Shown piece after piece: positions 1-60,908 of a stretch of DNA of 64,000 bases (within the stretch, counting starts at the first letter, position 1; each line of letters opens with the position of its first letter). The notes below the pieces were generated by a model. That model saw only the letters and a program-made list of their open reading frames with translations. It had not been told where the DNA came from and did no database searches. Location: contig JAUCBJ010000160.1 of assembly GCA_032718475.1 (NCBI GenBank), positions 1 through 64,000 of the forward strand, written 5' to 3'. The DNA is from Nemertoderma westbladi. Lineage: Eukaryota; Animalia; Xenacoelomorpha. The position numbers were made by a program, and so were the translations under genes.

Positions 1-2495
1 TACGTGATTATTTCGAACTTATGCAATTTATATTATTCTGAACTTATGCAATTTATATTGTTCCGAATATTATGCAATTTATATCTTATAAGCAGTATTT
101 GTACCTAAAGAGAAAGTTTTATAGACAGAAAAATTTGTGCTCAGAAAGACTCATATTTGTAATTATTCCAAAACTTATGCAATCTACATTTAGGTACGAA
201 AGTATTTGTAATTACTTGAATTTATGCAATATTTGAGATACAATAGTAGATGGAAGACTTGCGAGCCTTTCTTATTGTTTTCATTTATTTGTATTTGTAA
301 TTGTTTGAATTTATGCAATATCTGAGATGCAATAGATTTATATTGGTGAATTTAATTTAGATTTATATTGTACTTACTTAGTAAAGCCATAAATACGTAA
401 AGTTTGAATTTGTAATTATTTTTGTATCGAATCATTACGTAAAAAGGAAGTATTGTTTGAAATTTAATTGTAAATATGTAAGTACGCCCTAAGTATTCCA
501 TAGTTTGATTGATTATTGGTGAAAACCGTATATTTTATGCACGATAATATCCTGTTTTCATGGAGCGGTATAGAATTATATTCCCTAAATGCCGTGGATT
601 TTCAAAATTTTATTTTATTCGAATTAACTTTGTAAAGATTGCTTTGAGTTCTCATTAGTATTGGTTCTATCTATCGTGTATCTATCGGTCAAGTGGTTCA
701 GTAGCTCAGTTGGTAGAGCGTTGGAAATTATATGTGTAGTAGGTATCGAGTTCGAATCCTAGTAAGTGCGAATTATTTTTTGTGCAGAATTTCAACTCAT
801 TTAAATTAACCGCTACAAATTAATTGCATTTGTCTGTACCAATAAGGCTGTAGTTATTTGATTGTAACCAATGTCGTGCAAGTTATATATTAGCTGGACC
901 AATAAGCTATCTTTAAAACCTTGTTAGAATCTATAGAACAATCGAGAATTTTCTCGATTGATTGCGGCACAAATTTGGTATAAAAAGGTGCGATTTCGTT
1001 CATTAATCTAATCTCTACTTACACTACTACTACTTTAGTATTCACTTTATTATCTTATCAATATTCTGTCGTGCTTAGTTTATTCTCAGATTACATTGTA
1101 TTATAATTGTATCTTCTGTAATAAAGTCAGAATATTCTCTCAGCTTTTCTGTTTTACTATGAATTCACTACGGTGAACAAACTCAGGGACAGGATGGCCG
1201 GCTAGAGATCGGGCCGCAGCAATGAACGGGAACATCACGGGAATGTAGACGAGAGACAACCCGCAATACCATTTAAAGTTATTCGCCCATCGCCTGAAAG
1301 GTTAGACAGCGTTCGATCCTTGCTACCTAAGTATAAGACCAAAAGATCAAAGGTAGACGTAGTGACACGCTGCAAGCCTAAAATTACATCATAGGGACTG
1401 TACTGTCTTGATTCAGGGAAAACCGCAGTAGACCTTCATATTCCTACGGGGGGGAGGGAGAGAGAGCAGATACTAGTACGCAGATAGGACGTAGGCACAC
1501 CGGTACAAGGCATACACATTGGTTAGGGTGCAGCGAACTGTACGCTTAACTCTTGCTAAGTACAGGTGTGTGTGCGACTATTTACCGTACAACGGTGTCC
1601 GTTACATCAGAACTTGTAGGCTAGGGGGGTTGCTGTGTTTTCACCTGAATGGGGATTGTACCGTTCAGGCGGTAGGGCAGTTTACGCTAGGCGCAAATAA
1701 ATTGAGGCTATCAGGGATATACTAACATCTACCGTGTCCCCGCCAACGCCCTAATAGGAAGTTACCTGGACTACCTGGGTGACTAAAATTCTAGATAGGA
1801 GCCAGGATAGCTATTAGTACCCGTACGCCTACAGTAGTAAACTAACACATCTCTTCTTAGTATCAGGGACCTGGTACCTAAAATTGCCGAATTCTGGGCG
1901 TAGTATTAACCTTATGCCTGAATTTGAGTCCTGGAAATACGCAAGAGGGGAAGGAACCTTATCATTCGTGAGTATTGGACCTACAAGTTACAAAATTAGA
2001 ATATTCGTAAAATGCACACCGTACCCAGTAATTATATATGTGAAGGAGCAAAACTGCTTTTGACCGTTCAGAATTACACACGCGCGTTAGAAATTATTTA
2101 CACCTCAAAATATATAAAATTAACTTTCGTCCTTACTGCACTTTGCTCGCTAGTTAGACATCTCCAAATATCTGCCTCTATACCTAGCTAGCGTCCCTTT
2201 GCCCAACCATATAAATCACACCGCGGCAAAGTATACGAGCCCCTTAGTCCGTCAGTGAGTCAGCCTGATTTTAGGATTCGCTGCGCGGGATTTGTTTTAT
2301 CGAAGTTTGTCTGCTCGTAGACTGTTTTCTGCCTCACCGGTTAAAAGAGATCGATACTGCAATATATTCGCTTACTTAGGGTTTACTGTTTTGGTGAGAA
2401 GGTCGGATTTATGATTTGATTTACAAACTTTACAGTAGGATATTGCAGGTATTGTTACCGTCTCTTCCGATAGTAGGAATAGGCGTATCTCTCCA
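1..2495 (+). repeat. 5' LTR (partial)
   Basis: Matches 16613-19106 (offset 16612, then 16611 after a 1-bp indel near 2077). Ends ...TCTCTCCA; identity runs 5 nt further (ATTTA, to 2500). Confidence 0.85.
695..781 (+). promoter_or_regulatory. tRNA-derived Pol III unit in the 5' LTR
   Basis: A box/D-arm TAGCTCAGTTGGTAGAGC (702-719), B box GAGTTCGAATCC (748-759), T6 terminator 776-781. Anticodon, T and acceptor stems do not pair. Confidence 0.7.
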
Positions 2496-2500
2496 ATTTA

Positions 2501-2512
2501 GTAGGAATATGA
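2501..2512 (+). other. Putative non-tRNA (self-priming) primer-binding site
   Basis: GTAGGAATATGA is the exact reverse complement of TCATATTCCTAC at 1436-1447. No TGG-type PBS follows the LTR. Confidence 0.55.
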
Positions 2513-3344
2513 TTATTTTAACATATTTCCTAATTTAGTAGGAATATGTTTTACTGAACTACGGTTCGGTAGGACTAAAGTTATTTGAAAATTTTGTATT
2601 TTGAGGTAAAAATTTGTATTTGATTAGCTAAGTGCTAATTTTTTGAAATAAAAATTTGATTTGAACCGCGTGTAAAATATTTTGGAATTGAATACCGGTG
2701 TTTAAAAGGGTTTAAATACCATATTGTACCGGTACAAAATTTTCGTAAAGTAAAACCTAACTCTTTTGTTTTTCAGGATTCAGAACTCATTTCTAGACTG
2801 TAACGGGAGCAAGACCGTGTTTAGCAAGTTTGGGAGATAGATAACTCAACAACTTTGGTTGGGAAAATCGCGTTTCGTCCGCAACGTTAAAAACGGAAAG
2901 GTTCACGTCCGGTTTGTATCTGGGAATCTGTTTTTCTGGAGAATTATTGGAGTGGGTGAGTTCGAAAAGTTGCATAAATAAGTTAGGCATTACCGTATTA
3001 GTTAAAAATTATTGTGGGTTCCACTGTCTCAAGCATTTATGCATTCCGTATGATTTCTTTGTTCATTGCTGAATTAGTCCGTATTATTGTATTTAATTTA
3101 CCTTTGATAACGCATATCGTTATCCGATTTATTTGTTATAAAATTGGCCGCTAGGCTAATTTTATTATATACTTATTCCGTGACATTTATTTGCTGTAAA
3201 ATTGGCCGTTTAGGCTAATTTTATCCATCTGCTATAAAATCGGCCGGTAGGCTAATTTTATATGACTGTAATTAGTACCGTTTTATACAAATACGGTAAA
3301 CTCGATACTTTGACACTCACTTCACTTGACTTACAACTACTGAA

Positions 3345-6300
3345 ATGAGTGACAAACAAGACTATACGAAGAATACACAAACCGACTATGACTCATGTGA
3401 CGGAGATAAGTCAGCAGCGGAAGAACAACAGGGGAAGACTCGCGAGCCTACCGAACCTACACCGTGTGCGTCACCAGTACATCCAACGGGAGTACCGGAT
3501 GCCGTAGTACGAGGCGACGGCAGGACCGAGGACTTTCTAACTGTTCCGCAACCTAGATATAGGGAAACGGAATTGGTAAGTTCAGCAGGAAGCACAGAAA
3601 GTGTGGTTAGAAGCGTCGGAGGATACATGGCGCATATAACCAGGAGCATTGGAGAAGGCCAACGCATATTAGACGGGTTGACCGCTCCGATGTCTCGATT
3701 CGAGTTCTACACCCTCCAGGTTAGAGTACAGAGTAGAGTACACAAGTCCGTAGATAACCTAGTTGGCCTACAAGATCTAGCTAGACAGAGACAGGACATG
3801 GATACTCAACTTAGAATCCTCGAGAAACTAATGATCACTAGAGAGAAACTGATTCAGTTTAAGTCGACGATTAGACAGATACAACAGGAACAAGCGGACC
3901 AGTTGTTAGGTGAGTCAGTTTCGGACGAATTATTACAGCCCGAGGAAGAACAGGAACTGTACCGACTGGATGGACAATTAAAACACCTGACGGACCACTT
4001 ACGCATGTGCGGCGAAGACGTCGGCGATTTGGAAACCGTGCCGGAATACACGAGGGAAACTTCATTCGCACAAATCGAATCGGCACCGGGAATACTAAAT
4101 CAATCATTGGTAAGTATTCGTAGCGAAATCTGCGAAGGAAGTATAGTCACGTCAGAAGTTGCTCGACAACAGCAGCAGTTCTACAGACAGCAACACGAGA
4201 TAGAAGAACAAGCTCAACTTCTAATGATACAAACAGCAGTAGAGGAAGAGAAAATACGTGTTGCGAATGTAGCGAGAATCTCTCATCTGCAGGAACAAGC
4301 CGAACTCGAAGCGGCCGAAATGGAAAGGTTAGAGTTGGACATTGCCCAACAAGCGGCAACGGCCGAGTTAGCGCAACGAACGGCAACAGCCGAGTTAGAG
4401 CGACAAACGGCTGCGGCAGAGTTAGAGCGACAAACGGCTGCGGCAGAGTTAGAGCGACAAAGAGTAGTTTCGGAAGCCAGAGTCGAGATGAAGACACGGC
4501 AAATAAAAGCCCAACAAGCGATACGACAAGCAGAGTTCGAGGCGCAACAACAACAAACGGAACAACGAGAAAAGGAAGTTAAACTTCGTTTCGAACTTGA
4601 GAAGAGGGCGAGAGAATTAGCCGAAACTAAGGAAAATCTGGATCTTCTAGCCCGCGATCGATCGATGAGATCTCGCGACGGACATGATTTGGACCAGTTA
4701 GAGGTAAGACATCGCCAAATTCAGGAACGGAAGAAGGAAGGAAGCGTAGGAGCACCCGGACGGGAACGACAATTAGTAAAAGACGTGTGTCAACGATTCC
4801 CACAGGTAACTCATATGTTTGCACCGGTTACGACTAAGGAACCTGTTTCGATTGCGGGTAGTAGTGATATTTCTCCTATCCATGGTGCGACGGAACACAG
4901 GTTTGTTATTCCGGACAAGTTTACACCGCCAAGAGCAACGTCGTCGCCTATTCCGAGAGTCAAGGTAAGTAACCCACCGATTACAGATCGTAGTAGTTTA
5001 TTGACCGGACCTGCGCTACTGACGACAAAACAGGTGAGTCCACCTTTGACGCCTAAACCCGTTACACATTACGCTTACCCAATGACGTTTCGACCTACAA
5101 GGCCAGTTGTTTCAAATGCTGTCATTCGCCCACCGGTTCAGTTTACATCGCAATCTACGACTTCGAGGAAGACTTGTGAGCCTACCGAACAACGGAGAAC
5201 AGTGGAGACGCGACCGTTCAACCAGTTTACATCGCAATCTACGACTTCGAGGAAGACTTGTGAGCCTACCGAACAACGGAGATCAGTGGACGATGTTCCG
5301 AAACGAGCCGTTAGAATTCGAACGACGCAACGGATGCGAGCACGTCGACCACCATATCCAGATGATAGTAGTACTTCGAGCGAATCGGATTACCCGAAAC
5401 GCGAGGTATTTAGAACAGGGGCGGCCGATGAATATAAACGCGAGCGTTCAGACAACTCCTTTGCAGACAATCCTCCACAGAATACACCAACACAGAAGGC
5501 GTTACAACCAACGGACGCAATTAGTACACAACAGTTCGCCGACATTCTGCGACCAGTTGTCAACAAGTTGGCTCAGATCGAGGAGCGTCTGGAGGAAGTT
5601 CAAACCGATAGTTCGAGGAACACCGAATTCGAACACAATAGACACCCGAAGGCACCACAAAGACCGGTACCTTCAAACCCCACATCGTATCAGGGAAAAG
5701 CGCCAAGAAGGGAGAACATCAACCAGGTTACCAACCAAGGACGCGAAACTCTGAACGTTGCTGAGGAGATAGCAAAATTCGCAGCCAGACAAGGATTGCC
5801 GGTACAACAACCACCGAAGTTTTCCGGTAGCTCAAAACACTGGCATACCTTCGTAGACTATATCGAATCCCAGATCGCCGTGTGCGCCTTTACATCACGG
5901 GAGAAGTTCAATTACCTGCTCCAAACGTTGTCAGGAGAACCTAAACGTTTGGCGGAGACTTTCGTCGGTGTACCGGACGCTTTCGAACTAGCGTACGATC
6001 GTTTGACTTCGATATACGGAGGTACAGTGAGTATGGCCAGGTCAGTAATAGAGGAACTCTGTAAGGGAGGGGCTATCACTAAACCCGTCGACTTACTAAA
6101 ACTGGCTGACGAGATTAAGAACGCTATCACTACCTTAAGATCAATTGGACAACTTGATTACGGGAATACCCCTACAGTTCTATTAAAGATAATAGGACGA
6201 CTCCACCATCGACTTCGTCGGGAGTGGAGGAAGGTCGAATACCAGCGAGAGGAGCGGGGAGGATTCTTAAAATTAGAAGATGTGTACCTTTTAATATCCA

Positions 6301-9300
6301 GGGAGGCGGTAGTAGAAACTCGATCTAACTATACCGACCAGCACATCGTGGCAGAAGGGATCACACTGCCATCCTCCAACCGACAAAAACCCCAGACAAC
6401 ATCCACAAAGACGGCCACTTACGCCACACCGACGGAATCACGACAATTCTCAGACGGTAATAGAGTATCTGCGCCCATTGGGACGAAACAGACGAGACAG
6501 CAACTCAGCGCCGACTTCAACGGCTGCCAATACTGCGAACATTTAGGTAAGCGGTATATTGGTCACAAGTTACGAGGTTGTCGACAATTTCGCGAGTTGA
6601 ACTCAGAAGAACGACGGCTGCAGATACGGCCACTGGACTCTTGTTGGCGGTGTACGCGACACGGACACGTCCGTAAGGATTGCCCAAATACCGACACTTG
6701 TCCATCCTGTGGACGCAACCACGACGGTCTGCTCCACACAGACAGCCACACGCCGACGAAACGCTTCGCCAGGGAACACCCGGAAGCAGCAGCGAGATGT
6801 GATGCGGCTTACCGAAAACGAGAATCGAAAACGACTCCGACTTTCGTGACCCATATAGAGGATTGCTTTTCAGAACAATCCGGATCGTCGGACGAAGAAT
6901 CAGACGACGACGAATATTCTAATGGAGACGAACAACCGTCAATCGCGCTCCTGACCACTGACCAACTGAAGGGATTCAGTGTAATCCCGATTAAAGTTAC
7001 TGGCACAAAAGGGAGTAAGAGGATTTACGCGATTCTAGACTCAGCCTCATCTCACAGTTACGTGGATGAAAAGATAGCTGACGTCGTAACGGATCTCAGA
7101 CAAGGTAAACACGTAAGTTATACAGTAAGTAGTATGCATGGCCAGCGTGCAATACCAGTGACACGAGTTAAGTTGGACTTAGACTCTCTTCTTCCAAAAT
7201 CGCAACACAGCGAGAGGGAGAGATCTTTGTTACCCTTTAGAGATCTAACCTTTGCGGCCACGAAGGACTTTAGTAACCTACTAGGTCCAGTGCCGGAACA
7301 ATCTCTGGAGGACCGTAAGTATTTCAGACACCTTGGTGTACCCGAATGTCCTGTCAATTATAGATCAGTAGCAATGCTGATCGGGACGGACCAATTCAAC
7401 CTACATCAGGTGTGGGAAACCAGACCATCGGCAGTTGTAGCAGGAAACGCATACGCCTGCAGAACGCCGATAGGGTGGTATACACGAGCGCCTGTGCGCA
7501 CACTAGACGTAAGTGACGAGGAAGACGATGTACAGAGTACATGTAGTTTATTAACTACAAATTCAATTCATTCCTTTTCACACGACGTGAACCATACTAC
7601 GCTACAGTCGACAAAACATGACAGACGTGTAACTAGTATGATAAGTCACAAGGAGCAGCTAATCCACAAGGTGAGTTTAGAACTTGGGGAGAAGACGAGT
7701 CAGCTAGAGATTCCATCGACGACAGATGATAGGCTTGCGAGTCTACCTACCCCAATAACCTCAACAGTGCCCATCGATATCGACGATGACGCGTTGAAAA
7801 TTCATCAGTTGGAACAAGCCGCCTTGGACAAAGAATTAACGGAGAAGACTATCAGGTGGTTAGAACAAGATACGGCTGAACCTGGTAGCTACGACCCTTG
7901 TATGTCGGAACAGGAGAAACAATCTCTAAAGATCATGGAGGATACTATCCGACAGACGGAGGACGGACATTACGAGGTGGGGATGTTATGGCGTAGCCAA
8001 AGTCCTAAACTTATAAATAACTACCCACTGGCTTTAAGACGTCTACACTCAATCCGACAACGTCTATTAAAGGACGAGAAAGCCCATCTGCAGTATAACA
8101 CTCAGATGGAGACGTATTTGACGAAGGGATACGCTATCAGAATGACTAACCCGGAGCGAGTGACCGACCAGACATACTACCTGCCACATCACTATGTGAG
8201 ACATCCCGATAAACCAGACAAAGTACGTGTAGTCAATGACTGTGCGGCTCTATTTGAGGGAATGTCCCTCAATAGTGAGTTGATGGATGGACCGAACATG
8301 AATAATTATCTTATGGGGGTGATTATGCGCTTCCGTCAGCGCCAAGTAGCCTTTACTTGTGACGTTGAAGCGATGTTTCACCAAGTAAAAGCGTTAGAGC
8401 GAGACAGAGACAGTTTGCGGTTTCTCTGGTATCCGGAAGGGGACTTAAGTCTACCACCAGCGACTTACCAAATGCAAGTTCGCGTTTTCGGTGCCAGAGA
8501 CAGCCCAAATTGTACGATGTACGCCTTGAAGCAAGCCGCTAGAGATCAGAAACATCTGTATGACCCAGAGATAATTAGAATTGTAGAACGTGACTTTTAC
8601 GTTGACGACGGATTACAGAGTTGCGACACAGTAGAACGTGCTACAACAGTAGCACATCAATTACGGGACTGCTTGGCGAGCGGAGGTTTTAACCTCACCA
8701 AATTCGCCTCAAACAGTGCCGAATTAGTTGACTCATTCGGAACTACTGAGCGTGGAGGTGGTGACATAGACCTAGAGTTCGAACCACTACCGACGACTAA
8801 GGTGTTGGGGCTCTTTTGGGACCCAAACACAGACAACTTTCGAGTGAAGGTGAGACTGGACAGTCAAGGAAACACACTGACCAAGAGATCATGCTTGTCA
8901 AAGTTGAGCCGATTGTTCGACCCGTTAGGATTCATCAGTCCAGTGATACTGCAAGCCCGCATTTATATGCGCAGTATATGGAAGGATGGACTAACGTGGG
9001 ACGAGCCGATCTCATCAGATCAAGTGGACTTATGGAAGACCTGGGAGGCGGAATTGTCTTCGTTAGAGGATTATTCCATACCCAGGGTTTACTTTCCATT
9101 ACAGAGTACATTTCCTGACAACTTGGAACTACACTGTTTTTCCGACGCCAGTGACAACGGGTTTGGTGTGGCAGCGTATTTGCGCAGACAAGTAGAATCA
9201 GACGAGTTCGATGTTTCGCTCATTACTTCCAAGGCTAAGACCATGCCTACTAAGTATATGACGACACCACGAGCCGAGCTACAAGCCGCGACCCTGTCAA

Positions 9301-12002: not shown

Positions 12003-12665
12003 TTAGGAGTTTACAAATAGATTTCCACGTACCTGTACACCGTAGTAAGGACAGCGGTAGAATTCCATTGTCTTTATATGTGAACATTGAGGGTAGTACC
12101 CTTATGTGTCACATAGGAGCGGGATTTGTAGGTATAAGAAATGGAATTCTACTTGGAACTCACAATATTGAGACATTTTCGAAATTTTAGACAATCCATT
12201 TGGATTTGAAAAATTTTTAAAATTTTCTCCAGTGAATAGATTTCAGGGTACAGTCGGGTGGAACTTAAAATTAGAGAAACAAGAGAGGAAGACTTGCGAG
12301 CCTTTCTTAAAATTTTTAATTAAATTTTACACGGTCTTGTTTCAATAAGTTACGTCAAAATAGACTCCCCTATATTTATTACTAATTCTTGACTGCTTAT
12401 TTTCTGATAATAGTTTGGGATCAAAAGGTGAGTATTTTAGACTCACGGCCAGTTTAGCCCAAATTCGTTTTTACTTCGGCAAAAAAAAAATTTTAGATAA
12501 GAAGCAGCGTGTCATTAAAGAAACCCTAGATCTTAGGCTATGGGTAGGAGGTTAGAGCGTTGTCGAGCCAAAAGGGCAGACGAAACTCTCACGTCTCCTC
12601 ACAACTAACTACAAACTCTGTTGTATTCCCTCTAGTAGTAATGATTATGTAACTACACCCTAATT

Positions 12666-15600
12666 ATGGAGAAAGGGATACAAGGAGAGCCGAGATGGGG
12701 ATATGATATCCAAGAGGAGGCAGCAGCGCCATTCGAAAGATTTGGAGCCAAGGATTACACTATATTTGGTATAAAAGAATTATCGGAAAGTACAGCGAAA
12801 CTCGCGAGAACTAAATATGACTCGAATGTATTAAAGAGAAGGCAAAACGCATTAAACGAAAGAATCGAAAGTTTGCGCCAAACCTTCAACGAACTTTACC
12901 CGTACGATGCTTTGTGTGATACGGGAGACATTAGCGAAGACCCCGATACTGAAATTAGTCGTTTGTATCATACCATGCAATACCTAAAGGCGCACGAACC
13001 TATGCCTGCGGTACGCGATGAATTCGATGGAATGCATCTTTACAGACGAACTCGAGGGGACGATAGAGAAACCAAGGAAGCATTTTCAGTTTATAAACTT
13101 TATTATCAATGCGGTTCTTGTATGCGTGAACAACGAAATGCGATTCCGATGCGTTTGAATAAGGAAAATCCCGAACCGATATTGGCGAGATGTTCGAATC
13201 ATCAACAACTACGCTACCAGGAAGGAGGGTATCCTTTATCGAATCCATATCATTCATTTGCTATGACCGGACCAAAGGCGGGAGAAACTGTCATTTACCC
13301 ACCTAAGGTTGTTGAACCCGATGTATTTGAACTTACGCTGGACGAGGCGAATCAGTCAACCCGCGAAAAGAAAGAAGCTCTTAGCCTATACAGAGCCTAC
13401 AAGGCTTTCGAGAAAGGTGAGATGGAAGAATGGGGTGGAAGACTCGCGAGCCTACCTTGCCATTGGACGTCACACGATCAAACTTCAGCTAAGGAGATGA
13501 CACCGGAAGTTTTCGAGAGCATAAACTTCGCTCAAAACGTTATTCAGAGACTACAGATTGCATCCCCGGAGAGGCCAAGAGAAATGCAACCGTATAGTAC
13601 TGCAGCTACGAAACCATTGAGTACGACACTCAACTTTCCTATTAGTATACCAGTCCGACAGGATACGACGTACGAAATACCCATCGTGGATCATCCAGAA
13701 ATCATTTCAAACTTGGAGTTTCTTCCTGCAGTTGTTTTCAGCGATATGAGTAAGATATGTGATTTACGTAGACATATTACTCAAAAGGTCGTGAACAACG
13801 TTCCACCTCATATCCAAGATTTTAAGGAACTGGATAGAGCTGGTGCCGATATAGCTCCGAGTAATCTGAAAGGATATCTAACCAAGACGATTCGTTTATG
13901 GATTGGAATCGGAACCTTCGAGTCGGATACAGATATTGCCGCAGATTGGCGAGGTAAGGTTATTCGTTTCGATGAGGATAAGGATATAGAGAAGATTTGG
14001 CAACCTTCGGAAGAATTGTTGGATGAATGGACTAGGACGTTTAGATCGTTTCAGGAAAACGGTTATATGTTTTACGATAACGAGGGCGGCAGTCATCAGC
14101 AGAGTTTGACTTCTAAGACTATACAGATTAGAGCGGCGGACGGAGTCCTGCACGTTTTCAGTAGACAGAGGAGCGACAAACGAATGCCGATACCTCCAGC
14201 GAATACAAAGCGACACCATCTTATCACCGATATAGTAAAGAAGATGGACCAAGCTTGTAATATTGACGCTAGAATGCTACCGAAGATGGTAAGAAACATG
14301 ATTTTAGATAAAACTGTTGTAAAGGTTGGATCAGGAGTAAGGGAGGATTTAATTAGCGACTTCGCCGGCATGACGGACAGCGATGACCGACTACCGACAC
14401 CATACGTCGACACCCGACCTCTTATTCTGTGGTCTATAGAACAGGGATATTTTCGTGAGTATAATACTCAGAAGACTGGAACTGGATACATTTCCTACCT
14501 GTTATTCAATTGGGATTATAAGGAAGGTAAAAGAAACAAGTATATTGAAACTTATGGAGAAGGTGATACTCCAGATATGAGTGAGTTTGAATCACAGCTT
14601 AAATGGAGAGGATGCGTGTATTGGGCTATTACGTCACCTCCAAGAGCGGTCTTACAATATTATTTAGCAATAGAGTCGTCAGTGAATGTTTGCCTAATCG
14701 CCGACATTGTGTCTCGGACTCTCAAAAGACATCCACTTTGTCTCGGAGAAGATCATACGTTCTACATGGAAGGGAGAATTCGTACCGACGTGTTTAGACG
14801 ATTCCTTGAACCCTTCTACAACTCCGACGCTCAGTGTAATGCCTTTACTCGAGCAGGATTTAGTATATTTCGAGACGTGTATCTTCGCTGTGCGGGATCT
14901 CTTATCGAAAGACCATCTATGTTTACATTGTTACCCTATGAAGGAGAACGTATCGTGGAGATTATGGATGAATCACGGCAGACGCGCGCGTCTATCGGTC
15001 ACCTCGGTGATGATTTCAACGTAACTACTACGATCGCCGACGATCCTTTAGAGGAACTTCTTGAGATTGAAAGGAACCTCCCGAAGAAATCTCAGACGGA
15101 GATTCGACAACTTGAAGCAACAGATGCTATAGTTTGCCTACAACCTTCAGAAACCTACCAACCCATAGACCCAGATGATTACGATTATAGTGTGGGAGGA
15201 AGCGCTCGACCGATTGGAGATCTTATATACGAACGAGTGTGGTACCCTGCTAATACGATGTGTAGTAAATGTGGCGTCGCTGGACATCATATGGCAAAGT
15301 GCAGTGGAAAGCACATTACTACGACTCAGCTAATCTGTGGATGGTGTGGGGATCAAGGGTCTCATACCTTTTATACTTGCTGGAGATTTATGGCTCAGTG
15401 TACTTACTGCAATATAAAGGGACATCGAGCATCTGAATGCCAACTAAGAGACATACCTTATGAACACGAATCTGTAAAACTCGTGAGGAAGTTATTTGAT
15501 GAGTGGGAAGATTTGGCCGACGAACATGTATCGGCACAGAGAAGACGGTTTCCGATGAGAGCGCATCTCGGATTTTGGGCGGTAAATCCCCAGACGATGA

Positions 15601-16391
15601 TGTCGGAAGGATATATCTCCGCTATGCCCCAATATGACGAACTTATCGAGGTTGTTGATATTTTGCCCCACGACAGCGGATTCCGAGTGGTGCGCGAGTA
15701 TCTGTTACAGATTCACCCGGATAACAAAAACACGTGGAATTTTCAGAAAGTCGTAAATCGTATCACGTATGGTGAATTTGATCGTTTCCGAACCGAAAAG
15801 CGGAATAAAGGAGCTTGGTTAACCGTCGCATGGGCGTACCGAGCCGCGTTTTACCATAAACGTATACGAGCGAGCGTATTCGAGGAAGAAGAGGTCCTAG
15901 AGGCGACGAATATATCAGCCACTCCGGTTGCGCCGTCTGCACGTCACCCTCGGGAGGACGGACAGGGTAGGATCATACGGGTCCAGAAAGTGGGCCAACA
16001 ATTGAAGAAAATTATTAATGTGGAAGAACGCAAGGGAGTTGAGCCGACTATTCGAGTTACTCGGGATACGGTATCACTTCCAAGAGAACCGGTAGGAGGA
16101 TCGGGACATACACCAGCTGATCAACAGGGGGCGCAAGCTACTCTTGGGTCTGCGTCGTCCGCTTCTCACGCGTTCCCAGACGTTCTACCGACTGTAGTGA
16201 CGACTGATCGGTCACGAGGAATTGGTCGAGGTTTTGGGATGCCAAATAGACGAATTTGTGAGGAAATAGTCGCACCGTCTCTTAACGTCCCAAGTAAACC
16301 AGTGACTCGCCCCACAAGTCCCATATCGCGAGCAAAGTCACCTGTGCGCAGTTTTCGAGGACGCGGCAGGGCTCGATCCACTAAGCGATAA
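12666..16391 (+). CDS. Retrotransposon ORF2: DEDDy-like (RNase D/WRN-exo family) 3'-5' exonuclease domain plus 3 CCHC zinc knuckles
   Basis: ExoI FYDNEG (D471,E473); ExoII ILDKTVVKVGSGVRED (D561); YVDT; ExoIII-like W...QYYLAIE (Y666,E670). Knuckles CSKCGVAGHHMAKC, CGWCGDQGSHTFYTC, CTYCNIKGHRASEC at 15261-15440. Confidence 0.8.
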   Translation: MEKGIQGEPRWGYDIQEEAAAPFERFGAKDYTIFGIKELSESTAKLARTKYDSNVLKRRQNALNERIESLRQTFNELYPYDALCDTGDISEDPDTEISRLYHTMQYLKAHEPMPAVRDEFDGMHLYRRTRGDDRETKEAFSVYKLYYQCGSCMREQRNAIPMRLNKENPEPILARCSNHQQLRYQEGGYPLSNPYHSFAMTGPKAGETVIYPPKVVEPDVFELTLDEANQSTREKKEALSLYRAYKAFEKGEMEEWGGRLASLPCHWTSHDQTSAKEMTPEVFESINFAQNVIQRLQIASPERPREMQPYSTAATKPLSTTLNFPISIPVRQDTTYEIPIVDHPEIISNLEFLPAVVFSDMSKICDLRRHITQKVVNNVPPHIQDFKELDRAGADIAPSNLKGYLTKTIRLWIGIGTFESDTDIAADWRGKVIRFDEDKDIEKIWQPSEELLDEWTRTFRSFQENGYMFYDNEGGSHQQSLTSKTIQIRAADGVLHVFSRQRSDKRMPIPPANTKRHHLITDIVKKMDQACNIDARMLPKMVRNMILDKTVVKVGSGVREDLISDFAGMTDSDDRLPTPYVDTRPLILWSIEQGYFREYNTQKTGTGYISYLLFNWDYKEGKRNKYIETYGEGDTPDMSEFESQLKWRGCVYWAITSPPRAVLQYYLAIESSVNVCLIADIVSRTLKRHPLCLGEDHTFYMEGRIRTDVFRRFLEPFYNSDAQCNAFTRAGFSIFRDVYLRCAGSLIERPSMFTLLPYEGERIVEIMDESRQTRASIGHLGDDFNVTTTIADDPLEELLEIERNLPKKSQTEIRQLEATDAIVCLQPSETYQPIDPDDYDYSVGGSARPIGDLIYERVWYPANTMCSKCGVAGHHMAKCSGKHITTTQLICGWCGDQGSHTFYTCWRFMAQCTYCNIKGHRASECQLRDIPYEHESVKLVRKLFDEWEDLADEHVSAQRRRFPMRAHLGFWAVNPQTMMSEGYISAMPQYDELIEVVDILPHDSGFRVVREYLLQIHPDNKNTWNFQKVVNRITYGEFDRFRTEKRNKGAWLTVAWAYRAAFYHKRIRASVFEEEEVLEATNISATPVAPSARHPREDGQGRIIRVQKVGQQLKKIINVEERKGVEPTIRVTRDTVSLPREPVGGSGHTPADQQGAQATLGSASSASHAFPDVLPTVVTTDRSRGIGRGFGMPNRRICEEIVAPSLNVPSKPVTRPTSPISRAKSPVRSFRGRGRARSTKR

Positions 16392-16406
16392 AAGGGAGGG
16401 CAAGGG
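16390..16406 (+). other. Polypurine tract candidate
   Basis: AAAAGGGAGGGCAAGGG at the ORF2 stop, directly before TG at 16407. Confidence 0.6.
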
Positions 16407-19106
16407 TGGACGGAAGACTCGTGGGCCTTTCTTATGATTTGTGATTTATTTCGAATTATATGTTTTATATTTAGAAAATTTAGTAAACTTATATTTTATA
16501 TTTGTGCTTATTTCGAACTTATGCAATTTGTATTGTTCCGAATTTATGAAATTTAGAAATAAGAACTCATATTTAGTAAACTTATATTTAGTAAGAATTT
16601 ATATTTTATATTTACGTGATTATTTCGAACTTATGCAATTTATATTATTCTGAACTTATGCAATTTATATTGTTCCGAATATTATGCAATTTATATCTTA
16701 TAAGCAGTATTTGTACCTAAAGAGAAAGTTTTATAGACAGAAAAATTTGTGCTCAGAAAGACTCATATTTGTAATTATTCCAAAACTTATGCAATCTACA
16801 TTTAGGTACGAAAGTATTTGTAATTACTTGAATTTATGCAATATTTGAGATACAATAGTAGATGGAAGACTTGCGAGCCTTTCTTATTGTTTTCATTTAT
16901 TTGTATTTGTAATTGTTTGAATTTATGCAATATCTGAGATGCAATAGATTTATATTGGTGAATTTAATTTAGATTTATATTGTACTTACTTAGTAAAGCC
17001 ATAAATACGTAAAGTTTGAATTTGTAATTATTTTTGTATCGAATCATTACGTAAAAAGGAAGTATTGTTTGAAATTTAATTGTAAATATGTAAGTACGCC
17101 CTAAGTATTCCATAGTTTGATTGATTATTGGTGAAAACCGTATATTTTATGCACGATAATATCCTGTTTTCATGGAGCGGTATAGAATTATATTCCCTAA
17201 ATGCCGTGGATTTTCAAAATTTTATTTTATTCGAATTAACTTTGTAAAGATTGCTTTGAGTTCTCATTAGTATTGGTTCTATCTATCGTGTATCTATCGG
17301 TCAAGTGGTTCAGTAGCTCAGTTGGTAGAGCGTTGGAAATTATATGTGTAGTAGGTATCGAGTTCGAATCCTAGTAAGTGCGAATTATTTTTTGTGCAGA
17401 ATTTCAACTCATTTAAATTAACCGCTACAAATTAATTGCATTTGTCTGTACCAATAAGGCTGTAGTTATTTGATTGTAACCAATGTCGTGCAAGTTATAT
17501 ATTAGCTGGACCAATAAGCTATCTTTAAAACCTTGTTAGAATCTATAGAACAATCGAGAATTTTCTCGATTGATTGCGGCACAAATTTGGTATAAAAAGG
17601 TGCGATTTCGTTCATTAATCTAATCTCTACTTACACTACTACTACTTTAGTATTCACTTTATTATCTTATCAATATTCTGTCGTGCTTAGTTTATTCTCA
17701 GATTACATTGTATTATAATTGTATCTTCTGTAATAAAGTCAGAATATTCTCTCAGCTTTTCTGTTTTACTATGAATTCACTACGGTGAACAAACTCAGGG
17801 ACAGGATGGCCGGCTAGAGATCGGGCCGCAGCAATGAACGGGAACATCACGGGAATGTAGACGAGAGACAACCCGCAATACCATTTAAAGTTATTCGCCC
17901 ATCGCCTGAAAGGTTAGACAGCGTTCGATCCTTGCTACCTAAGTATAAGACCAAAAGATCAAAGGTAGACGTAGTGACACGCTGCAAGCCTAAAATTACA
18001 TCATAGGGACTGTACTGTCTTGATTCAGGGAAAACCGCAGTAGACCTTCATATTCCTACGGGGGGGAGGGAGAGAGAGCAGATACTAGTACGCAGATAGG
18101 ACGTAGGCACACCGGTACAAGGCATACACATTGGTTAGGGTGCAGCGAACTGTACGCTTAACTCTTGCTAAGTACAGGTGTGTGTGCGACTATTTACCGT
18201 ACAACGGTGTCCGTTACATCAGAACTTGTAGGCTAGGGGGGTTGCTGTGTTTTCACCTGAATGGGGATTGTACCGTTCAGGCGGTAGGGCAGTTTACGCT
18301 AGGCGCAAATAAATTGAGGCTATCAGGGATATACTAACATCTACCGTGTCCCCGCCAACGCCCTAATAGGAAGTTACCTGGACTACCTGGGTGACTAAAA
18401 TTCTAGATAGGAGCCAGGATAGCTATTAGTACCCGTACGCCTACAGTAGTAAACTAACACATCTCTTCTTAGTATCAGGGACCTGGTACCTAAAATTGCC
18501 GAATTCTGGGCGTAGTATTAACCTTATGCCTGAATTTGAGTCCTGGAAATACGCAAGAGGGGAAGGAACCTTATCATTCGTGAGTATTGGACCTACAAGT
18601 TACAAAATTAGAATATTCGTAAAATGCACACCGTACCCAGTAATTATATATGTGAAGGAGCAAAACTGCTTTTGACCGTTCAGAATTAACACGCGCGTTA
18701 GAAATTATTTACACCTCAAAATATATAAAATTAACTTTCGTCCTTACTGCACTTTGCTCGCTAGTTAGACATCTCCAAATATCTGCCTCTATACCTAGCT
18801 AGCGTCCCTTTGCCCAACCATATAAATCACACCGCGGCAAAGTATACGAGCCCCTTAGTCCGTCAGTGAGTCAGCCTGATTTTAGGATTCGCTGCGCGGG
18901 ATTTGTTTTATCGAAGTTTGTCTGCTCGTAGACTGTTTTCTGCCTCACCGGTTAAAAGAGATCGATACTGCAATATATTCGCTTACTTAGGGTTTACTGT
19001 TTTGGTGAGAAGGTCGGATTTATGATTTGATTTACAAACTTTACAGTAGGATATTGCAGGTATTGTTACCGTCTCTTCCGATAGTAGGAATAGGCGTATC
19101 TCTCCA
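16407..19106 (+). repeat. 3' LTR (~2.7 kb)
   Basis: TGGA...TCCA inverted termini, preceded by a purine tract; near-identical to 1-2495. The left edge is inferred because the 5' copy is cut by the window. Confidence 0.75.
17307..17393 (+). promoter_or_regulatory. tRNA-derived Pol III unit in the 3' LTR
   Basis: Copy of 695-781. Confidence 0.7.
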
Positions 19107-19226
19107 ATTTAATTTATCTCTTTAACTGTGCAACTACTGTGTATATTACTTTACCTGTGTAACAATTTCTCTCTGTATTTTTGTAACTAATTATCTCCTT
19201 ACCTGTGTAACTATATCACTGCTTAC

Positions 19227-19375
19227 CTGTGTAAATATTCCTTTCGTTGTTGGCTCCATTGTAGTTGTTGTAATAGGTGTGCCACCGTAAGTTTGGGGTG
19301 CTTCAGCTGTTGATGTTGCCTCATTTAGCACAGCAGCAACATTAGATATAAACTGACTGGCATTACGAACACTCC
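19227..19375 (-). CDS. Exon of a polycystin-1/REJ-like host gene (last seen in window)
   Basis: TTATAG| ... CAG|GTAAGC; phase 1 to 0; GSVRNASQFISNVAAVLNE... continues in frame from 25587. Confidence 0.75.
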
Positions 19376-19392
19376 CTATAACATATCAAAAA

Positions 19393-21526
19393 GACTTAGT
19401 CTGCGTGCTAGCAGAACAACGAAATCTGCCTTGCCGCGGCATGACTGGTCCTCTCTGTTGCAACAGCCAAGTGTGAGATCCAGCTTCACACTACAGCTGA
19501 GCAACAGGTATGAGGCAGATGCGGCAGATCACTGTGAGGGCTATACTGCCTTTACAGAAGCAGTTAAGTTAGCAGCTGCAGAAACAGTTCCTGTATACCC
19601 TCGAAACAGGAAAAGGGCCCCCTGGACTGACAACAAAATTCAGAAGTGCCGAAATGACCTTCATAAGGCGCAGAAAGAGTCCCGACTCAAACAGACTACA
19701 GCGGCCAAGAATGCAGTTAAGGCTGCATCTAGGTCCCTGAACAGGCAGTACTCTGCTAATCTACAGGAGGTAATAAACCAACAGGTTGATGCCATCAATG
19801 ATGCTGACGACAGCAGGCAATCAATGGTTGGAAAGCCCACTTTGAAAAGCTCCTCAATAATGACAGGGTATTGCCTGATAACTTTATAGAAGTAAAAGTG
19901 TCTGAGTCTGTACTCCCAGATATTCCCATTGGCGATGTCTCCTTTGCAGAAGTGAAGGCTGCTGCAAAGAGCATTAAGACCAATCGTGCCAGTGGAGTAG
20001 ATGGTGTTCCCCCTGAGGTCTTTAAAATACTTGAGTGTTTAAAGCTCATCTATCGCATCATAGTAGACATGTACCGAACAACAAGAGTCCCACAAGAAAT
20101 GAAAACAAATAAGTTGGTGCCAGTTCCCAAGAAGGGCAACCTAACACTCTATGGTTCTTTTCGGGGAATCTCATTGATCTCGATTGCTGCAAAGCTATAC
20201 AATAGGATTCTATTAAATCGCATCAGGGATCCCATTGAGAGACTGCTCCGTGGAAATCAGAATGGGTTCCGTAAAGGTCGTGGAACCATGGAGCCCATTT
20301 TGGCACTTAGAAGGATAATTGAAGAGTTATCAAAAAAGAAAGACAGGCATCTGGCTGTTATCTTTGTTGACTTCTTCAAGGCCTTTGATTCAGTCTCTCG
20401 CTCACGTATGTTCAGCATACTTTCATTATATTGGATTCCTGATGAAATTATTGCAGCAATCAGATCAGTATACGATGGTTCGACAACATTTGTGTCTACT
20501 GTTGACGGTGACACAGAACCATTTGAAGTGTTATGGGGCGTCCTCCAGGGAGACACACTTGCACCATTCTTGTTCATTATTGTGGTTGACTATGTTCTAC
20601 GCATGTCCTTAGATCATTATAATGATGATGGGGTGATGATAACTCCACCTAATGGCTCCAGAAGTCGAGGAAATCCTGCCAAGTACCTAACTGATCTAGA
20701 CTTTGCTGATGACTTAGGAGTACTCTCAGAATCATTAGAGGGAGCCCAACGGCTCCTCAGCTCATCAGAACATGCTGCTTCTAGTGTTGGTCTTTTTATT
20801 AACTCTAGAAAGACCAAAATTCTGAAAGTTAACTTTGAAAGTCCTCAGTAAGTCTCTGATCGGATGAGCATAAGCTCAAAGGATGGTATGCTTGAGCATG
20901 TGGACGACTTCTGTTACCTGGGATCATGGATCCGGAAGTCAGGTGAGGACCTTCGAATACGTAAGGGAAAGGCATGGGCAGCCTTGAATAGGCTTTCCAG
21001 GATTTGGAAGTCACCGAGAATTAATCGGAAACTTAAGGTCCGATTATTTAGAGCAGCAGTAGTTCCAGTACTCCTCTACGGGAATCCATGCTGGGCTCTA
21101 ACTGCTGAGGACACCAAATCTCTGGATGGCACATTCACAAGAATGCTACGCCGGGTACATTGTGTCAAGTACAATGCACACATCTCCAACCAGACTCTAT
21201 ATAACATTGGAGGGGTCTCATTGGTTCCCCCAAGCTTGACACTAGAACAAAATCGCCTCCGCTTTGCAGGACATTGCTTTCGCCGTGAGGACCAGCCAGT
21301 GCTTAATCTTGTACTTTGGCAGCCTCATGGAGTGAATAAGCATGGTGGACAGCCCATGACTTTCTTGAGACGCATCTTAAAGGACACTGGCCTTAAAGAT
21401 GCGGATGATCTAGCAAATGTCATGGGTGATAGGGAGTTGTGGCGGTGCAATTTCGTTGACAAGCCGGCACAGCATTCTTAAAAATGCAGCTGCAATGCAG
21501 CATGCCGATCCTAGTAGTAGTAGTAG
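19393..21526 (+). mobile_element. 5'-truncated RTE-like LINE with disrupted RT
   Basis: RT motifs QNGFR, FVDFFKAFDSV, GVLQGDTLAPFLF, LDFADD, RLRFAGH; frameshift near 19830-19870, stop at 20849; (TAG)n tail; 16-bp TSD TATAACATATCAAAAA at 19377-19392 and 21527-21542. Confidence 0.9.
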
Positions 21527-60800: not shown

Positions 60801-60908
60801 TTACAATATAAAACATATATGTGTAGGCGTACTGTAAGTCTAATATTACATTAAACTATTAAATCTGAGTATCTGTGGTGAAGGGTCTAAATCCTTTCTA
60901 AAATCAAA

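What the first reader, a model, noticed from the sequence alone, without database searches (positions are those of the whole stretch)
252..16885. A 20-nt hairpin motif repeated 9 times through the element regardless of reading frame
Seen: GGAAGACTYGYGRGCCT(TTC/ACC) at 252, 3433, 5167, 5251, 9759, 12287, 13437, 16412 and 16864, all on +. It sits in LTRs, inter-ORF DNA and both ORFs, read as KT(R/C)EPT in some places and GRLASL in others. The 9759 and 12287 copies share 28 identical nt across coding and non-coding DNA. It can fold as a stem with an A.C mismatch and a YGYG loop; the 16412 variant swaps U-A for U-G. Two pairs are trivial duplicates (252/16864, 5167/5251). Inference: a nucleic-acid-level signal, such as a dispersed packaging or protein-binding site for the Gag or ORF2 knuckles.
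Basis: partly seen in the sequence, partly recalled or inferred. Interest (0 to 1): 0.75.

Follow-up and report, generated by a model that had tools for sequence, protein, structure and literature searches.

The report
LTR-edge motif repeated through giant retrotransposon
A 17-base sequence that sits at the very edge of a 19-kb BEL/Pao retrotransposon's long terminal repeat recurs ten times through the element, always on the coding strand and evenly spaced, and it likely marks extra start or pause sites for copying the element's RNA into DNA rather than a stable RNA hairpin.

Summary
GGAAGACTYGYGRGCCT occurs 9 times on the + strand, with 0 expected by chance. A tenth, variant copy lies at 7731. 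There are no copies in the other 45 kb of the window. It is the only dispersed 12-mer in the element, and it is read in two frames and in non-coding DNA, so it is a nucleic-acid-level feature.

The host is an intact, very young, very high-copy BEL/Pao LTR retrotransposon of about 19.3 kb. It carries an orphan second ORF that is reached by splicing.

The proposed hairpin is not supported. Its free energy is -0.4 to -2.0 kcal/mol, no better than shuffled sequence.

New findings:
- The motif is bases +6 to +22 of U3, directly behind the 3' polypurine tract (PPT).
- Several internal copies share further homology with that junction.
- Four copies follow purine runs. Two of these runs match the last 11 bases of the Ty3 PPT.
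- The copies are evenly spaced, 1.15-3.0 kb apart.
- Three of the five local tandem duplications abut a copy.

Best reading (0.35): these are paralogues of the PPT-U3 junction that likely act as extra plus-strand priming or pausing sites, in the manner of a central PPT. Rivals are a Gag/ORF2 knuckle-binding RNA site, functionless by-products of reverse transcription, and a DNA-binding site. No function was tested. I rate it a new variant of a known kind, of moderate interest.

The parts
1..2495 (+). 5' LTR. Its first ~206 nt are cut off by the window start. The end is taken at ...CTCTCCA; identity with the 3' LTR runs on to 2500.
   Evidence: 1-2500 = 16613-19111 at 99.96%. The TG..CA ends are placed by analogy with relatives.
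252..268 (+). Motif copy inside U3 (same as 16864). It lies between two 45-nt direct repeats (202-246 and 291-335).
2956..12635 (+). Intron (GT..AG) whose removal joins the leader to ORF2.
   Evidence: joint 2954>12635, GT..AG (cut +1), in one contig of DNA run X2. Sequence seen.
3345..12002 (+). ORF1, a 2885-aa Gag-Pol polyprotein of BEL/Pao type.
   Evidence: (Peptidase_A17 2.5e-42, DUF5641, DUF1759, Integrase_H2C2).
3433..3449 (+). Motif copy (CGCG form), phase 1 (GKTREPTE). 16 of the 20 bases upstream are purines.
5167..5183 (+). Motif copy (TGTG form), phase 1, inside the first unit of an 84-nt tandem duplication.
5251..5267 (+). Motif copy in the second unit of the same duplication.
7731..7747 (+). 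Variant copy AGGCTTGCGAGTCTACC, phase 0 (DDRLASLP). It differs from the 13437 copy at third codon positions.
   Evidence: E 8.9e-6.
9752..9779 (+). 28-nt module with the motif at 9759-9775, phase 0 (GRLASLS). A 12-nt purine run ends in GGAAGA. A 159-nt tandem duplication starts at 9782.
12280..12326 (+). Intergenic module with the motif at 12287-12303. It has the same 28 nt as the 9752 module. Homology to the start of U3 runs on to 12322/12326.
   Evidence: and 58 (86% over 36 nt against 16864-16899; 77.5% over 40 nt against 16412-16451).
12666..16391 (+). ORF2, 1241 aa, an orphan protein with CCHC knuckles.
13430..13461 (+). Module with the motif at 13437-13453 (CGCG form), phase 0 (GGRLASLP). 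It is preceded by GGGGTGGA, which resembles the PPT-end/U3-start of the 3' junction.
16391..16406 (+). 3' polypurine tract, within AAAAGGGAGGGCAAGGG.
   Evidence: Sequence (a second purine-rich upstream context in X1 joins at 16402); relatives show PPT|TG.. junctions.
16407..19106 (+). 3' LTR, TGGAC...CTCCA, about 2.7 kb.
16412..16428 (+). Motif copy at U3 +6..+22. The block 16402-16435/40 is kept while the downstream U3 is replaced in LTR variants.
16864..16880 (+). Motif copy inside U3 of the 3' LTR. It lies in an 87-89-nt unit whose copy number varies among family members.
   Evidence: joint 16900>16814 'goes back 87'; loose ends behind 16845.

Best explanation
The ten motif copies are paralogues of the element's own PPT-U3 junction, and they likely act during reverse transcription as additional internal plus-strand priming or pausing sites, in the manner of a central polypurine tract (cPPT).

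Shown directly:
- The motif is U3 +6..+22, right behind the 3' PPT.
- Internal copies share extra homology with that junction.
- All copies lie on the + strand.
- Several follow purine runs.
- They are evenly spaced.
- They coincide with tandem-duplication sites.

Inferred: RNase H leaves purine runs ending in GGAAGA as primers, or RT pauses there. A 19-kb genome would then be copied into plus-strand DNA from several origins, with strand displacement at each site. The role of the conserved 11 non-purine bases downstream is not explained by known cPPTs. It is only guessed to be primer extension or removal, or a second function.
For: 1. Position. The 16412 copy begins 5 nt after TGGAC. TGGAC follows the purine tract AAAAGGGAGGGCAAGGG. 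BEL/Pao relatives show the same PPT|TG.. layout (L121, L122, L127, L131, L140).

2. Family variants.
- Loose ends start at 16402 in three different upstream contexts. One of these is another purine-rich tract.
- Four LTR variants keep the block up to 16435/16440 and replace what follows.

3. Homology beyond the 17-mer.
- 12287 matches the start of U3 for 36-40 nt.
- 9759, 12287, 252 and 16412 all have CAA[G/T][G/A]G upstream.
- 13437 keeps GGGGTGGA.

4. Purines.
- The 20 nt upstream hold 16-17 purines in 4 of 8 sites (3433, 12287, 13437, 16412). The background frequency of such windows is <= 0.027.
- Of the 8 non-overlapping 25-nt windows with 22 or more purines, 3 run into the motif.

5. Ty3 match. 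At 9759 and 12287 the run AGAGAGGAAGA equals the last 11 nt of the biochemically defined Ty3 PPT gagagagaggaaga (PMC3185511, passage read).

6. Spacing. Gaps are 1150-2975 nt with CV 0.28. P = 0.005 with 7731 included.

7. Tandem duplications. Three of 5 local tandem-repeat families include or abut a copy, P = 0.006. The LTR unit holding the motif varies in copy number across the family.

8. Strand. All 10 copies are on the + strand.

9. Precedent in the superfamily. In L121, L122 and L127 the 11-nt PPT occurs exactly once more, inside the integrase gene. It is invariant there while the flanks differ.

10. Precedent elsewhere. Multiple cPPTs are described for EVADE, and single ones for Ty1 and HIV-1 (PMC7197481, passages read).
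Against: - The canonical purine tract upstream of TGGAC has no internal copy; only chance-level 8-9-mers were found. What is repeated is mainly U3 sequence, 11 of whose 17 bases are not a purine run. Known cPPTs repeat the purine tract.
- Uninterrupted purine runs ending in GGAAGA are short at several copies. By my count on the and 43 prints they are 6 nt at 13437, 16412 and 252; 8 nt at 5167/5251; 3 nt at 7731; 9 nt at 3433; and 12 nt at 9759 and 12287.
- Purine richness upstream of the coding copies may simply reflect Glu/Lys/Gly-rich linkers where insertions are tolerated.
- Some copies share flanks by descent, so they are not fully independent.
- Without 7731 the spacing test falls to P = 0.09.
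- The spacing and tandem-repeat tests were chosen after looking at the data.
- At 10% share or more, the family is too uniform to show extra conservation. There were 4 variable places in 521 nt, and one of them lies inside a motif copy.
- No replication intermediate was observed.
Confidence: 0.35

Rival explanations
1. The motif is an RNA site on the genomic transcript, bound sequence-specifically by a protein: the Gag nucleocapsid knuckles, the ORF2 knuckles or a host export factor. It would act as a dispersed packaging, dimerisation or export signal.
For: - All copies are on the transcribed strand, and 9 of the 10 lie within the predicted genomic RNA.
- The loop varies only at the pyrimidines (YGYG); the G residues never vary.
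- Four independent copies carry UGCG. RSV nucleocapsid binds the G residues of a UGCG tetraloop in its packaging signal (PMC5035970, passage read).
- Copies 12287 and 16412 flank the extra gene ORF2. This resembles the RSV direct repeats that flank src and promote export of unspliced RNA (PMC9143442, passage read).
- Every change within the motif is A>G or C>T, which would keep pairing with a complementary strand.
- Even spacing also fits a distributed signal.
- ORF1 and ORF2 both carry CCHC knuckles.
Against: - The hairpin is marginal, at -0.4 to -2.0 kcal/mol for 7 of 8 20-mers. The fraction of shuffles folding as well is 0.48-0.92 for these 7, and 0.20 for 7731 (-4.2 kcal/mol).
- Minimum-energy folds in context differ between copies.
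- The self-duplex is only weakly better than shuffles, p 0.045-0.095 for five copies and worse for 5167 and 16412.
- There is no covariation, because the stems are identical in sequence.
- This reading does not predict the position at the PPT-U3 junction, the purine runs or the link with tandem duplications.
- No Rfam family matches.
Confidence: 0.25
2. The copies have no function. They would be by-products or fossils of reverse transcription and recombination. For example, short plus-strand products that start at the PPT-U3 junction could be re-used at other purine runs. The 12287 copy could be an old PPT-U3 junction left behind when ORF2 was acquired.
For: - The copies are homologous to the U3 edge and sit behind purine runs.
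- 12287 lies 285 nt after the ORF1 stop, roughly where a two-LTR BEL/Pao without ORF2 would have its 3' junction. In the relatives, the pol match ends about 50-260 nt before the LTR.
- The coding copies sit in non-domain stretches of ORF1, outside the Pfam matches.
- At 7731 the differences fall on third codon positions, as expected if only the peptide is constrained.
- No other sampled BEL/Pao has such a motif: 16 of 18 loci of 5 kb or more have none, and the other 2 hold long unrelated repeats.
Against: - Even spacing is not expected from accidents (P = 0.005).
- Eight independent in-frame or harmless insertions would have had to become fixed in the master lineage of a very successful family.
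- The non-coding copies 252 and 12287 remain identical to 9759 over 20 nt, although their flanks differ.
- I know of no documented mechanism of this kind (recalled; not searched).
Confidence: 0.2
3. The motif is a DNA-level binding site for a host or element-encoded factor, acting as an enhancer, insulator or chromatin mark. Recognition would be through its near-palindromic CTCGCGAG core.
For: - The inner 14 nt are a palindrome with one mismatch.
- U3 carries two copies, in modules of variable number, as enhancer repeats often are.
- The core resembles CGCG-type palindromic promoter elements (recalled, not tested).
- The element is not CpG-depleted: observed/expected is 1.17 in the internal part and 1.10 in the LTR.
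Against: - All 10 copies share one orientation, which a DNA site does not require.
- Only 2 of 8 independent copies keep the full CGCG core.
- It does not predict the purine runs, the even spacing through the ORFs or the link with tandem duplications.
Confidence: 0.08

Closest known systems
Central polypurine tracts (HIV-1 cPPT, Ty1 internal PPT, multiple cPPTs of Arabidopsis EVADE)
   Same: They are internal + strand copies of sequence from the 3' PPT region of an LTR element. Purine runs precede the conserved bases. The copies are associated with discontinuities. More than one copy per element is known for EVADE (PMC7197481, passages read).
   Different: Here the repeated part is mostly the first bases of U3 (6 purines plus 11 mixed bases). 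The canonical purine tract itself is not repeated. There are 8 independent copies, in a BEL/Pao element. No replication intermediates were seen.
Ty3 polypurine tract
   Same: The last 11 nt of the Ty3 PPT (sequence from PMC3185511) are identical to AGAGAGGAAGA at 9759 and 12287. Every copy except 7731 carries the terminal GGAAGA.
   Different: Ty3 is a Ty3/gypsy element with one PPT placed directly before its LTR. Here GGAAGA lies 5 nt inside the inferred LTR at the 3' copy. The cleavage site is unknown.
Rous sarcoma virus direct repeats (DR) flanking src
   Same: A cis element is repeated on both sides of an acquired extra gene and in the 3' untranslated region (PMC9143442, passage read). Copies 12287 and 16412 flank ORF2 in the same way.
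   Different: The DRs are about 100-nt structured elements present twice. Here a 17-40-nt unit without stable structure is present ten times, also inside ORFs.
Nucleocapsid-binding tetraloop hairpins and dispersed packaging signals of ssRNA viruses
   Same: A short motif with invariant G residues sits in a YGYG 'loop'. The UGCG tetraloop of RSV SL-C is a known nucleocapsid ligand (PMC5035970). Dispersed stem-loop packaging signals are described for several ssRNA viruses (abstract of PMC9065705, seen in the listing).
   Different: The stems here are identical in sequence and thermodynamically marginal. No binding data exist.

Membership tests
BEL/Pao LTR retrotransposon (the host element) | Pol with Pao-type domains, in the order Gag, protease, RT, RNase H, integrase | tested here: met
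   Peptidase_A17 2.5e-42, DUF1759, DUF5641, Integrase_H2C2; 119 relatives, all listed rows carrying PF05380, best identity 42%.
BEL/Pao LTR retrotransposon (the host element) | Two long terminal repeats with a purine tract before the 3' LTR | tested here: met
   2500 nt at 99.96%; purine tract at 16391-16406. The 5' LTR start lies outside the window.
Central polypurine tract (internal plus-strand primer) | Internal + strand copy of the 3' PPT purine tract | tested here: inconclusive
   The canonical tract has no internal copy. The copies do share GGAAGA plus U3 bases, and 4 of 8 follow purine-rich 20-mers. Two match the Ty3 PPT end.
Central polypurine tract (internal plus-strand primer) | Plus-strand 5' ends, gaps or DNA flaps mapped at the site | not testable with these tools
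   Only genomic contigs were available. No particle DNA or cDNA data.
Structured RNA packaging or NC-binding hairpin | A stem-loop more stable than expected for its composition, formed consistently at each copy | tested here: not met
   -0.4 to -2.0 kcal/mol for 7 of 8 20-mers, not better than shuffles; z from -1.5 to +1.1, with different folds per copy; other strand and DNA folds also weak.
Structured RNA packaging or NC-binding hairpin | Compensatory changes that keep the pairs | tested here: inconclusive
   The stems are identical in sequence. The only changes are A.C>G.U at 7731, which equally fits the reverse reading of a palindrome, and a minority A>G at 16424.
Structured RNA packaging or NC-binding hairpin | Specific binding by the capsid or nucleocapsid protein | not testable with these tools
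   Needs EMSA or CLIP.
RSV-type direct repeat / constitutive transport element | Repeated element flanking the extra gene in the unspliced RNA | tested here: met
   12287 lies upstream and 16412 downstream of ORF2.
RSV-type direct repeat / constitutive transport element | Extended conserved hairpin of about 100 nt | tested here: not met
   Shared sequence is 17-40 nt with no stable fold. No Rfam match at E <= 1 apart from one chance sRNA hit.
Known Rfam RNA families | Covariance-model match | tested here: not met
   the only match in 1-19300 is RydC at E 0.83, below its gathering score and on the minus strand.

The most novel reading that the evidence does not exclude
A giant BEL/Pao retrotransposon has spread about eight evenly spaced copies of its own U3-edge module along its genome. 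It uses them as a distributed cis-signal for reverse transcription: multi-origin plus-strand synthesis, with a conserved non-purine part that no known cPPT has. Alternatively it uses them for genome packaging by knuckle proteins. This would be a way for an LTR element to scale replication to 19 kb.
Probability: 0.3. Interest if true: 0.65.

Novelty: new variant of a known kind. Interest (0 to 1): 0.45.

Why it matters
LTR retrotransposons and retroviruses are thought to need one 3' PPT and at most a few central ones. An element three times the usual BEL/Pao length carries an evenly spaced array of junction-derived modules. If real, this would show how plus-strand synthesis, or packaging, can be scaled to very long genomes. 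It would also give a sequence signature for finding such sites in other giant elements. The link with tandem duplications further suggests a concrete source of internal rearrangement in retroelements. If the copies are functionless by-products, they would instead record a new kind of reverse-transcription error.

Tried and rejected
- Own genome: none is held, so genome-wide frequency is untested.
- Motif scans of public collections. Each locus has a single match. None of the 119 fetched loci resembles the element by blastn or tblastn, so these are chance hits.
- Protein route to close relatives.
  - ORF2 has no hit at near lengths.
  - ORF1 residues 1-700 have no hit among shorter proteins.
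  - The best ORF1 relatives are 42% identical, too distant to test motif conservation.
- ORF2 function.
  - The representative search gave 2 weak hits, on the knuckles and on one 120-residue stretch.
  - There is no PDB sequence match.
  - Atlas scores are 0.86-0.87, leads only, including a 3'-5' exonuclease cluster.
  - The single-sequence AlphaFold model has pLDDT 30.7 and is unusable. No fold search was run.
- BEL/Pao in viral contigs: none.
- RNA runs: no RNA holder is listed. X5 is only guessed to be RNA, so nothing is said about expression.
- Family conservation test: the family is too uniform, and the long table was cut (930 rows not shown), so no conservation statement is possible.
- Terminal inverted repeat between U3 start and U5 end: only TGGA/TCCA. 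The alignment is not significant.
- PBS-like reading of the motif: rejected. Only one copy is preceded by T, and the motif is not next to the 5' LTR.
- Peptide motif or protease site: rejected because of the two frames and the non-coding copies.
- General CpG decay as the cause of the Y positions: not favoured, since the element's CpG observed/expected is 1.10-1.17.
- Earlier findings of this scan: none.
- Literature: two searches on BEL/Pao and PPT listed no paper on internal PPT copies or dispersed motifs in BEL/Pao. This is not proof that none exists.

Full report
OBSERVATION

The pattern GGAAGACTYGYGRGCCT occurs 9 times, all on the + strand, at exactly the coordinates given. None of 100 dinucleotide-preserving shuffles had a match.

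Allowing mismatches adds one more site at 7731-7747. On the + strand it reads AGGCTTGCGAGTCTACC.

A profile of the modules recovers 10 + strand hits with E <= 8.9e-6, all within the first 17 kb. The next + strand hit has E = 1.9. The motif's own words are the only 12-mers with three or more dispersed copies in the element.

252 and 16864 are the two LTR copies. 5167 and 5251 lie in an 84-nt tandem duplication. That leaves 8 independent sites.

The reading frames are as follows:
- 3433, 5167 and 5251 are read as KT(R/C)EPTE.
- 7731, 9759 and 13437 are read as RLASL(P/S).
- 252, 12287, 16412 and 16864 are non-coding.

So the repeat is a nucleic-acid feature and not a peptide.

THE HOST ELEMENT

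ORF1 (3345-12002, 2885 aa) carries Peptidase_A17, DUF1759, DUF5641 and Integrase_H2C2. It has 119 BEL/Pao relatives, the best 42% identical.

The LTRs (1-2500 and 16613-19111) are 99.96% identical. The window starts about 206 nt inside the 5' LTR. The element is therefore about 19.3 kb, roughly three times the 5-6 kb internal size of most BEL/Pao elements I could fetch.

ORF2 (12666-16391, 1241 aa) has CCHC knuckles but no detectable family. A single-sequence fold was unusable (pLDDT 30.7).

A contig of DNA run X2 joins 2954 to 12635 with GT..AG ends. The donor reads GG|GTGAGT. The acceptor is a pyrimidine run ending in AG, 30 nt before the ORF2 ATG. ORF2 is thus reached by splicing, as in a retroviral env gene. 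A spliced form has been copied back into DNA.

The family is extremely abundant in organism A (22,947 contigs laid in X1). It is also present in a second organism label, B.

THE HAIRPIN

- The 20-mers fold at -0.4 to -2.0 kcal/mol (7731: -4.2). Shuffles fold as well in 48-92% of cases, and in 20% for 7731.
- In 41-43-nt contexts the z-scores range from -1.5 to +1.1. The inner stem appears in only 4 of 8 minimum-energy folds.
- The minus-sense RNA and both DNA strands are equally weak.
- A self-duplex of two copies reaches -19.5 to -20.5 kcal/mol for five copies, only marginally better than shuffles (p 0.045-0.095).
- Rfam has nothing.

The conserved feature is therefore the primary sequence and not a demonstrable structure.

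The 'U-G' variant at 16412 is a minority state in two of the three DNA runs of organism A. Position 16424 reads A in 71% (X1), 89% (X3) and 41% (X2) of the depth.

WHAT THE MOTIF IS PART OF

The 16412 copy starts 5 nt after TGGAC. TGGAC follows the purine tract AAAAGGGAGGGCAAGGG, which comes directly after the ORF2 stop.

BEL/Pao elements recovered from contigs filed as prokaryotic MAGs show the same layout. A short G-rich purine tract is followed at once by the TG.. start of the LTR. I therefore place the LTR start at 16407. That makes the motif U3 +6..+22.

Family data agree:
- Three different upstream contexts join at 16402. One of them is another purine-rich tract.
- Four LTR variants keep the block up to 16435/16440 and replace what follows.

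The exact LTR start remains an inference, because the 5' LTR start is outside the window.

The internal copies share more with this junction than the 17-mer:
- 12287 is homologous to the start of U3 for 36-40 nt.
- 252, 9759, 12287 and 16412 have CAA[G/T][G/A]G upstream.
- 13437 keeps GGGGTGGA.

The copies are therefore paralogues of the PPT-U3 junction module. The 12287 copy lies 285 nt after the ORF1 stop. It may be the old 3' junction from before ORF2 was acquired.

ASSOCIATIONS THAT POINT TO REVERSE TRANSCRIPTION

1. Purines.
- The 20 nt upstream hold 16-17 purines at 3433, 12287, 13437 and 16412, against a background frequency of <= 0.027. By my binomial arithmetic on these figures (not run as a call), four or more such sites among eight is of the order of 1e-5.
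- Three of the eight 25-nt windows with 22 or more purines run into the motif.

2. Ty3 match. At 9759 and 12287 the 12-nt purine run ends in AGAGAGGAAGA. This is identical to the last 11 nt of the Ty3 PPT as printed in PMC3185511.

3. Spacing. The gaps are 1734, 2564, 2028, 2528, 1150 and 2975 nt (CV 0.28). P = 0.005 against random placement, and 0.09 if 7731 is left out.

4. Tandem duplications.
- Three of the five local tandem-repeat families of the element include or abut a copy, P = 0.006.
- The 87-89-nt LTR unit with the motif is duplicated again in about 10-25% of family depth.
- The same unit is absent from some contigs.

5. Strand. All ten copies are on the + strand, the strand from which PPT primers are cut.

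6. Relatives. In three related BEL/Pao elements the 11-nt PPT occurs exactly once more, inside the integrase gene. It is invariant there while neighbouring codons differ. That is the classical cPPT pattern, known from HIV-1 and Ty1 and in multiple copies from EVADE (PMC7197481).

WEAKNESSES

- The canonical purine tract has no internal copies.
- The repeated unit is mostly non-purine U3 sequence, which no known cPPT needs.
- Purine runs ending in GGAAGA are only 3-8 nt at five of the eight sites.
- Purine richness near the coding copies may simply reflect charged linkers.
- Some flanks are shared by descent.
- Two of the statistical tests were chosen after looking at the data.
- The family is too uniform to show selective conservation. 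There were 4 variable places in 521 nt at 10% share or more, one of them inside a motif copy. The table was cut at 40 of 970 rows.
- At 7731 the three differences from the 13437 copy within the shared codons fall on third codon positions. That is what a peptide-only constraint would give.

VERDICT ON MECHANISM

I commit, at 0.35, to the reading that these junction paralogues likely serve as additional plus-strand priming or pausing sites during reverse transcription of an unusually long genome.

Rivals:
- RNA site for the Gag or ORF2 knuckles or for an export factor (0.25). It has real precedents: the UGCG tetraloop bound by RSV NC (PMC5035970) and the RSV direct repeats flanking src (PMC9143442). 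It lacks a credible structure here.
- Functionless by-products or fossils of junction-primed synthesis (0.2).
- A DNA-binding site (0.08).
- A peptide role is excluded by the frames.

COMPARISON AND NOVELTY

No dispersed short motif was found in the other BEL/Pao loci. Sixteen of 18 loci of 5 kb or more have none, and the other two hold long satellite or transposon repeats.

Two literature searches listed nothing on internal PPT copies or dispersed motifs in BEL/Pao.

This is best described as a new variant of a known kind. It is cPPT-like, but with about eight copies and a conserved non-purine part derived from the U3 edge, and it sits in a giant BEL/Pao element. Function is untested, so interest is moderate.

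Noticed in passing
window 12666-16391; splice 2956-12635: ORF2 (1241 aa) is an orphan protein with two or three CCHC knuckles. It has no Pfam, PDB or database relatives beyond the knuckles. It is reached by a GT..AG splice that removes all of ORF1. The joined form also exists in a DNA run, so a spliced copy was retro-copied.
   Followed up: partly
window 693-770 (same as 17305-17381 in the 3' LTR): A tRNA-like stretch sits inside the LTR. It has good A-box and B-box-like parts (GTAGCTCAGTTGGTAGAGC ... GAGTTCGAATCC). ARAGORN does not call it and Rfam does not match it.
   Followed up: partly
window 28389-47953: A 19.6-kb satellite of a 41-nt unit, about 476 copies, with strong strand asymmetry in composition.
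   Followed up: no
window 7-84 and 16490-16692: 25-nt tandem repeats (GAACTTATGCAATTTAT...) at the start of U3. They may be factor-binding repeats.
   Followed up: no
window 19808-21481: Directly after the 3' LTR lie frames with an RVT_1 reverse transcriptase (3.4e-27) and DUF6451. The BEL/Pao element appears to sit in or beside a non-LTR retrotransposon.
   Followed up: no
window 60891-63998: An open frame of 1036 codons runs off the window end, with no Pfam match.
   Followed up: no
L121 6515, L122 6645, L127 8067: Three related BEL/Pao elements carry exactly one internal copy of their 11-nt PPT, inside the integrase gene. It is invariant while neighbouring codons differ, so it is a candidate cPPT in BEL/Pao.
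   Followed up: partly
L120-L142: Twenty-three BEL/Pao loci sit in contigs filed as bacterial or archaeal MAGs, and one in a Wolbachia chromosome record. These are most likely animal DNA binned with, or transferred to, the microbes.
   Followed up: no
window 2496-2500 and 19107-19111: The five bases after both LTR ends are the same (ATTTA). The LTR may therefore end 5 nt later than the CA I assumed. AATTTAGTAGGAATATG is repeated 36 nt apart after the 5' LTR, and some family copies lack one repeat.
   Followed up: partly
window 1-1280 and 15361-17920: In run X2 these parts have about 10-20 times the depth of the rest of the element. The first 1.3 kb of the LTR may also exist as a separate high-copy repeat in that sample.
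   Followed up: no
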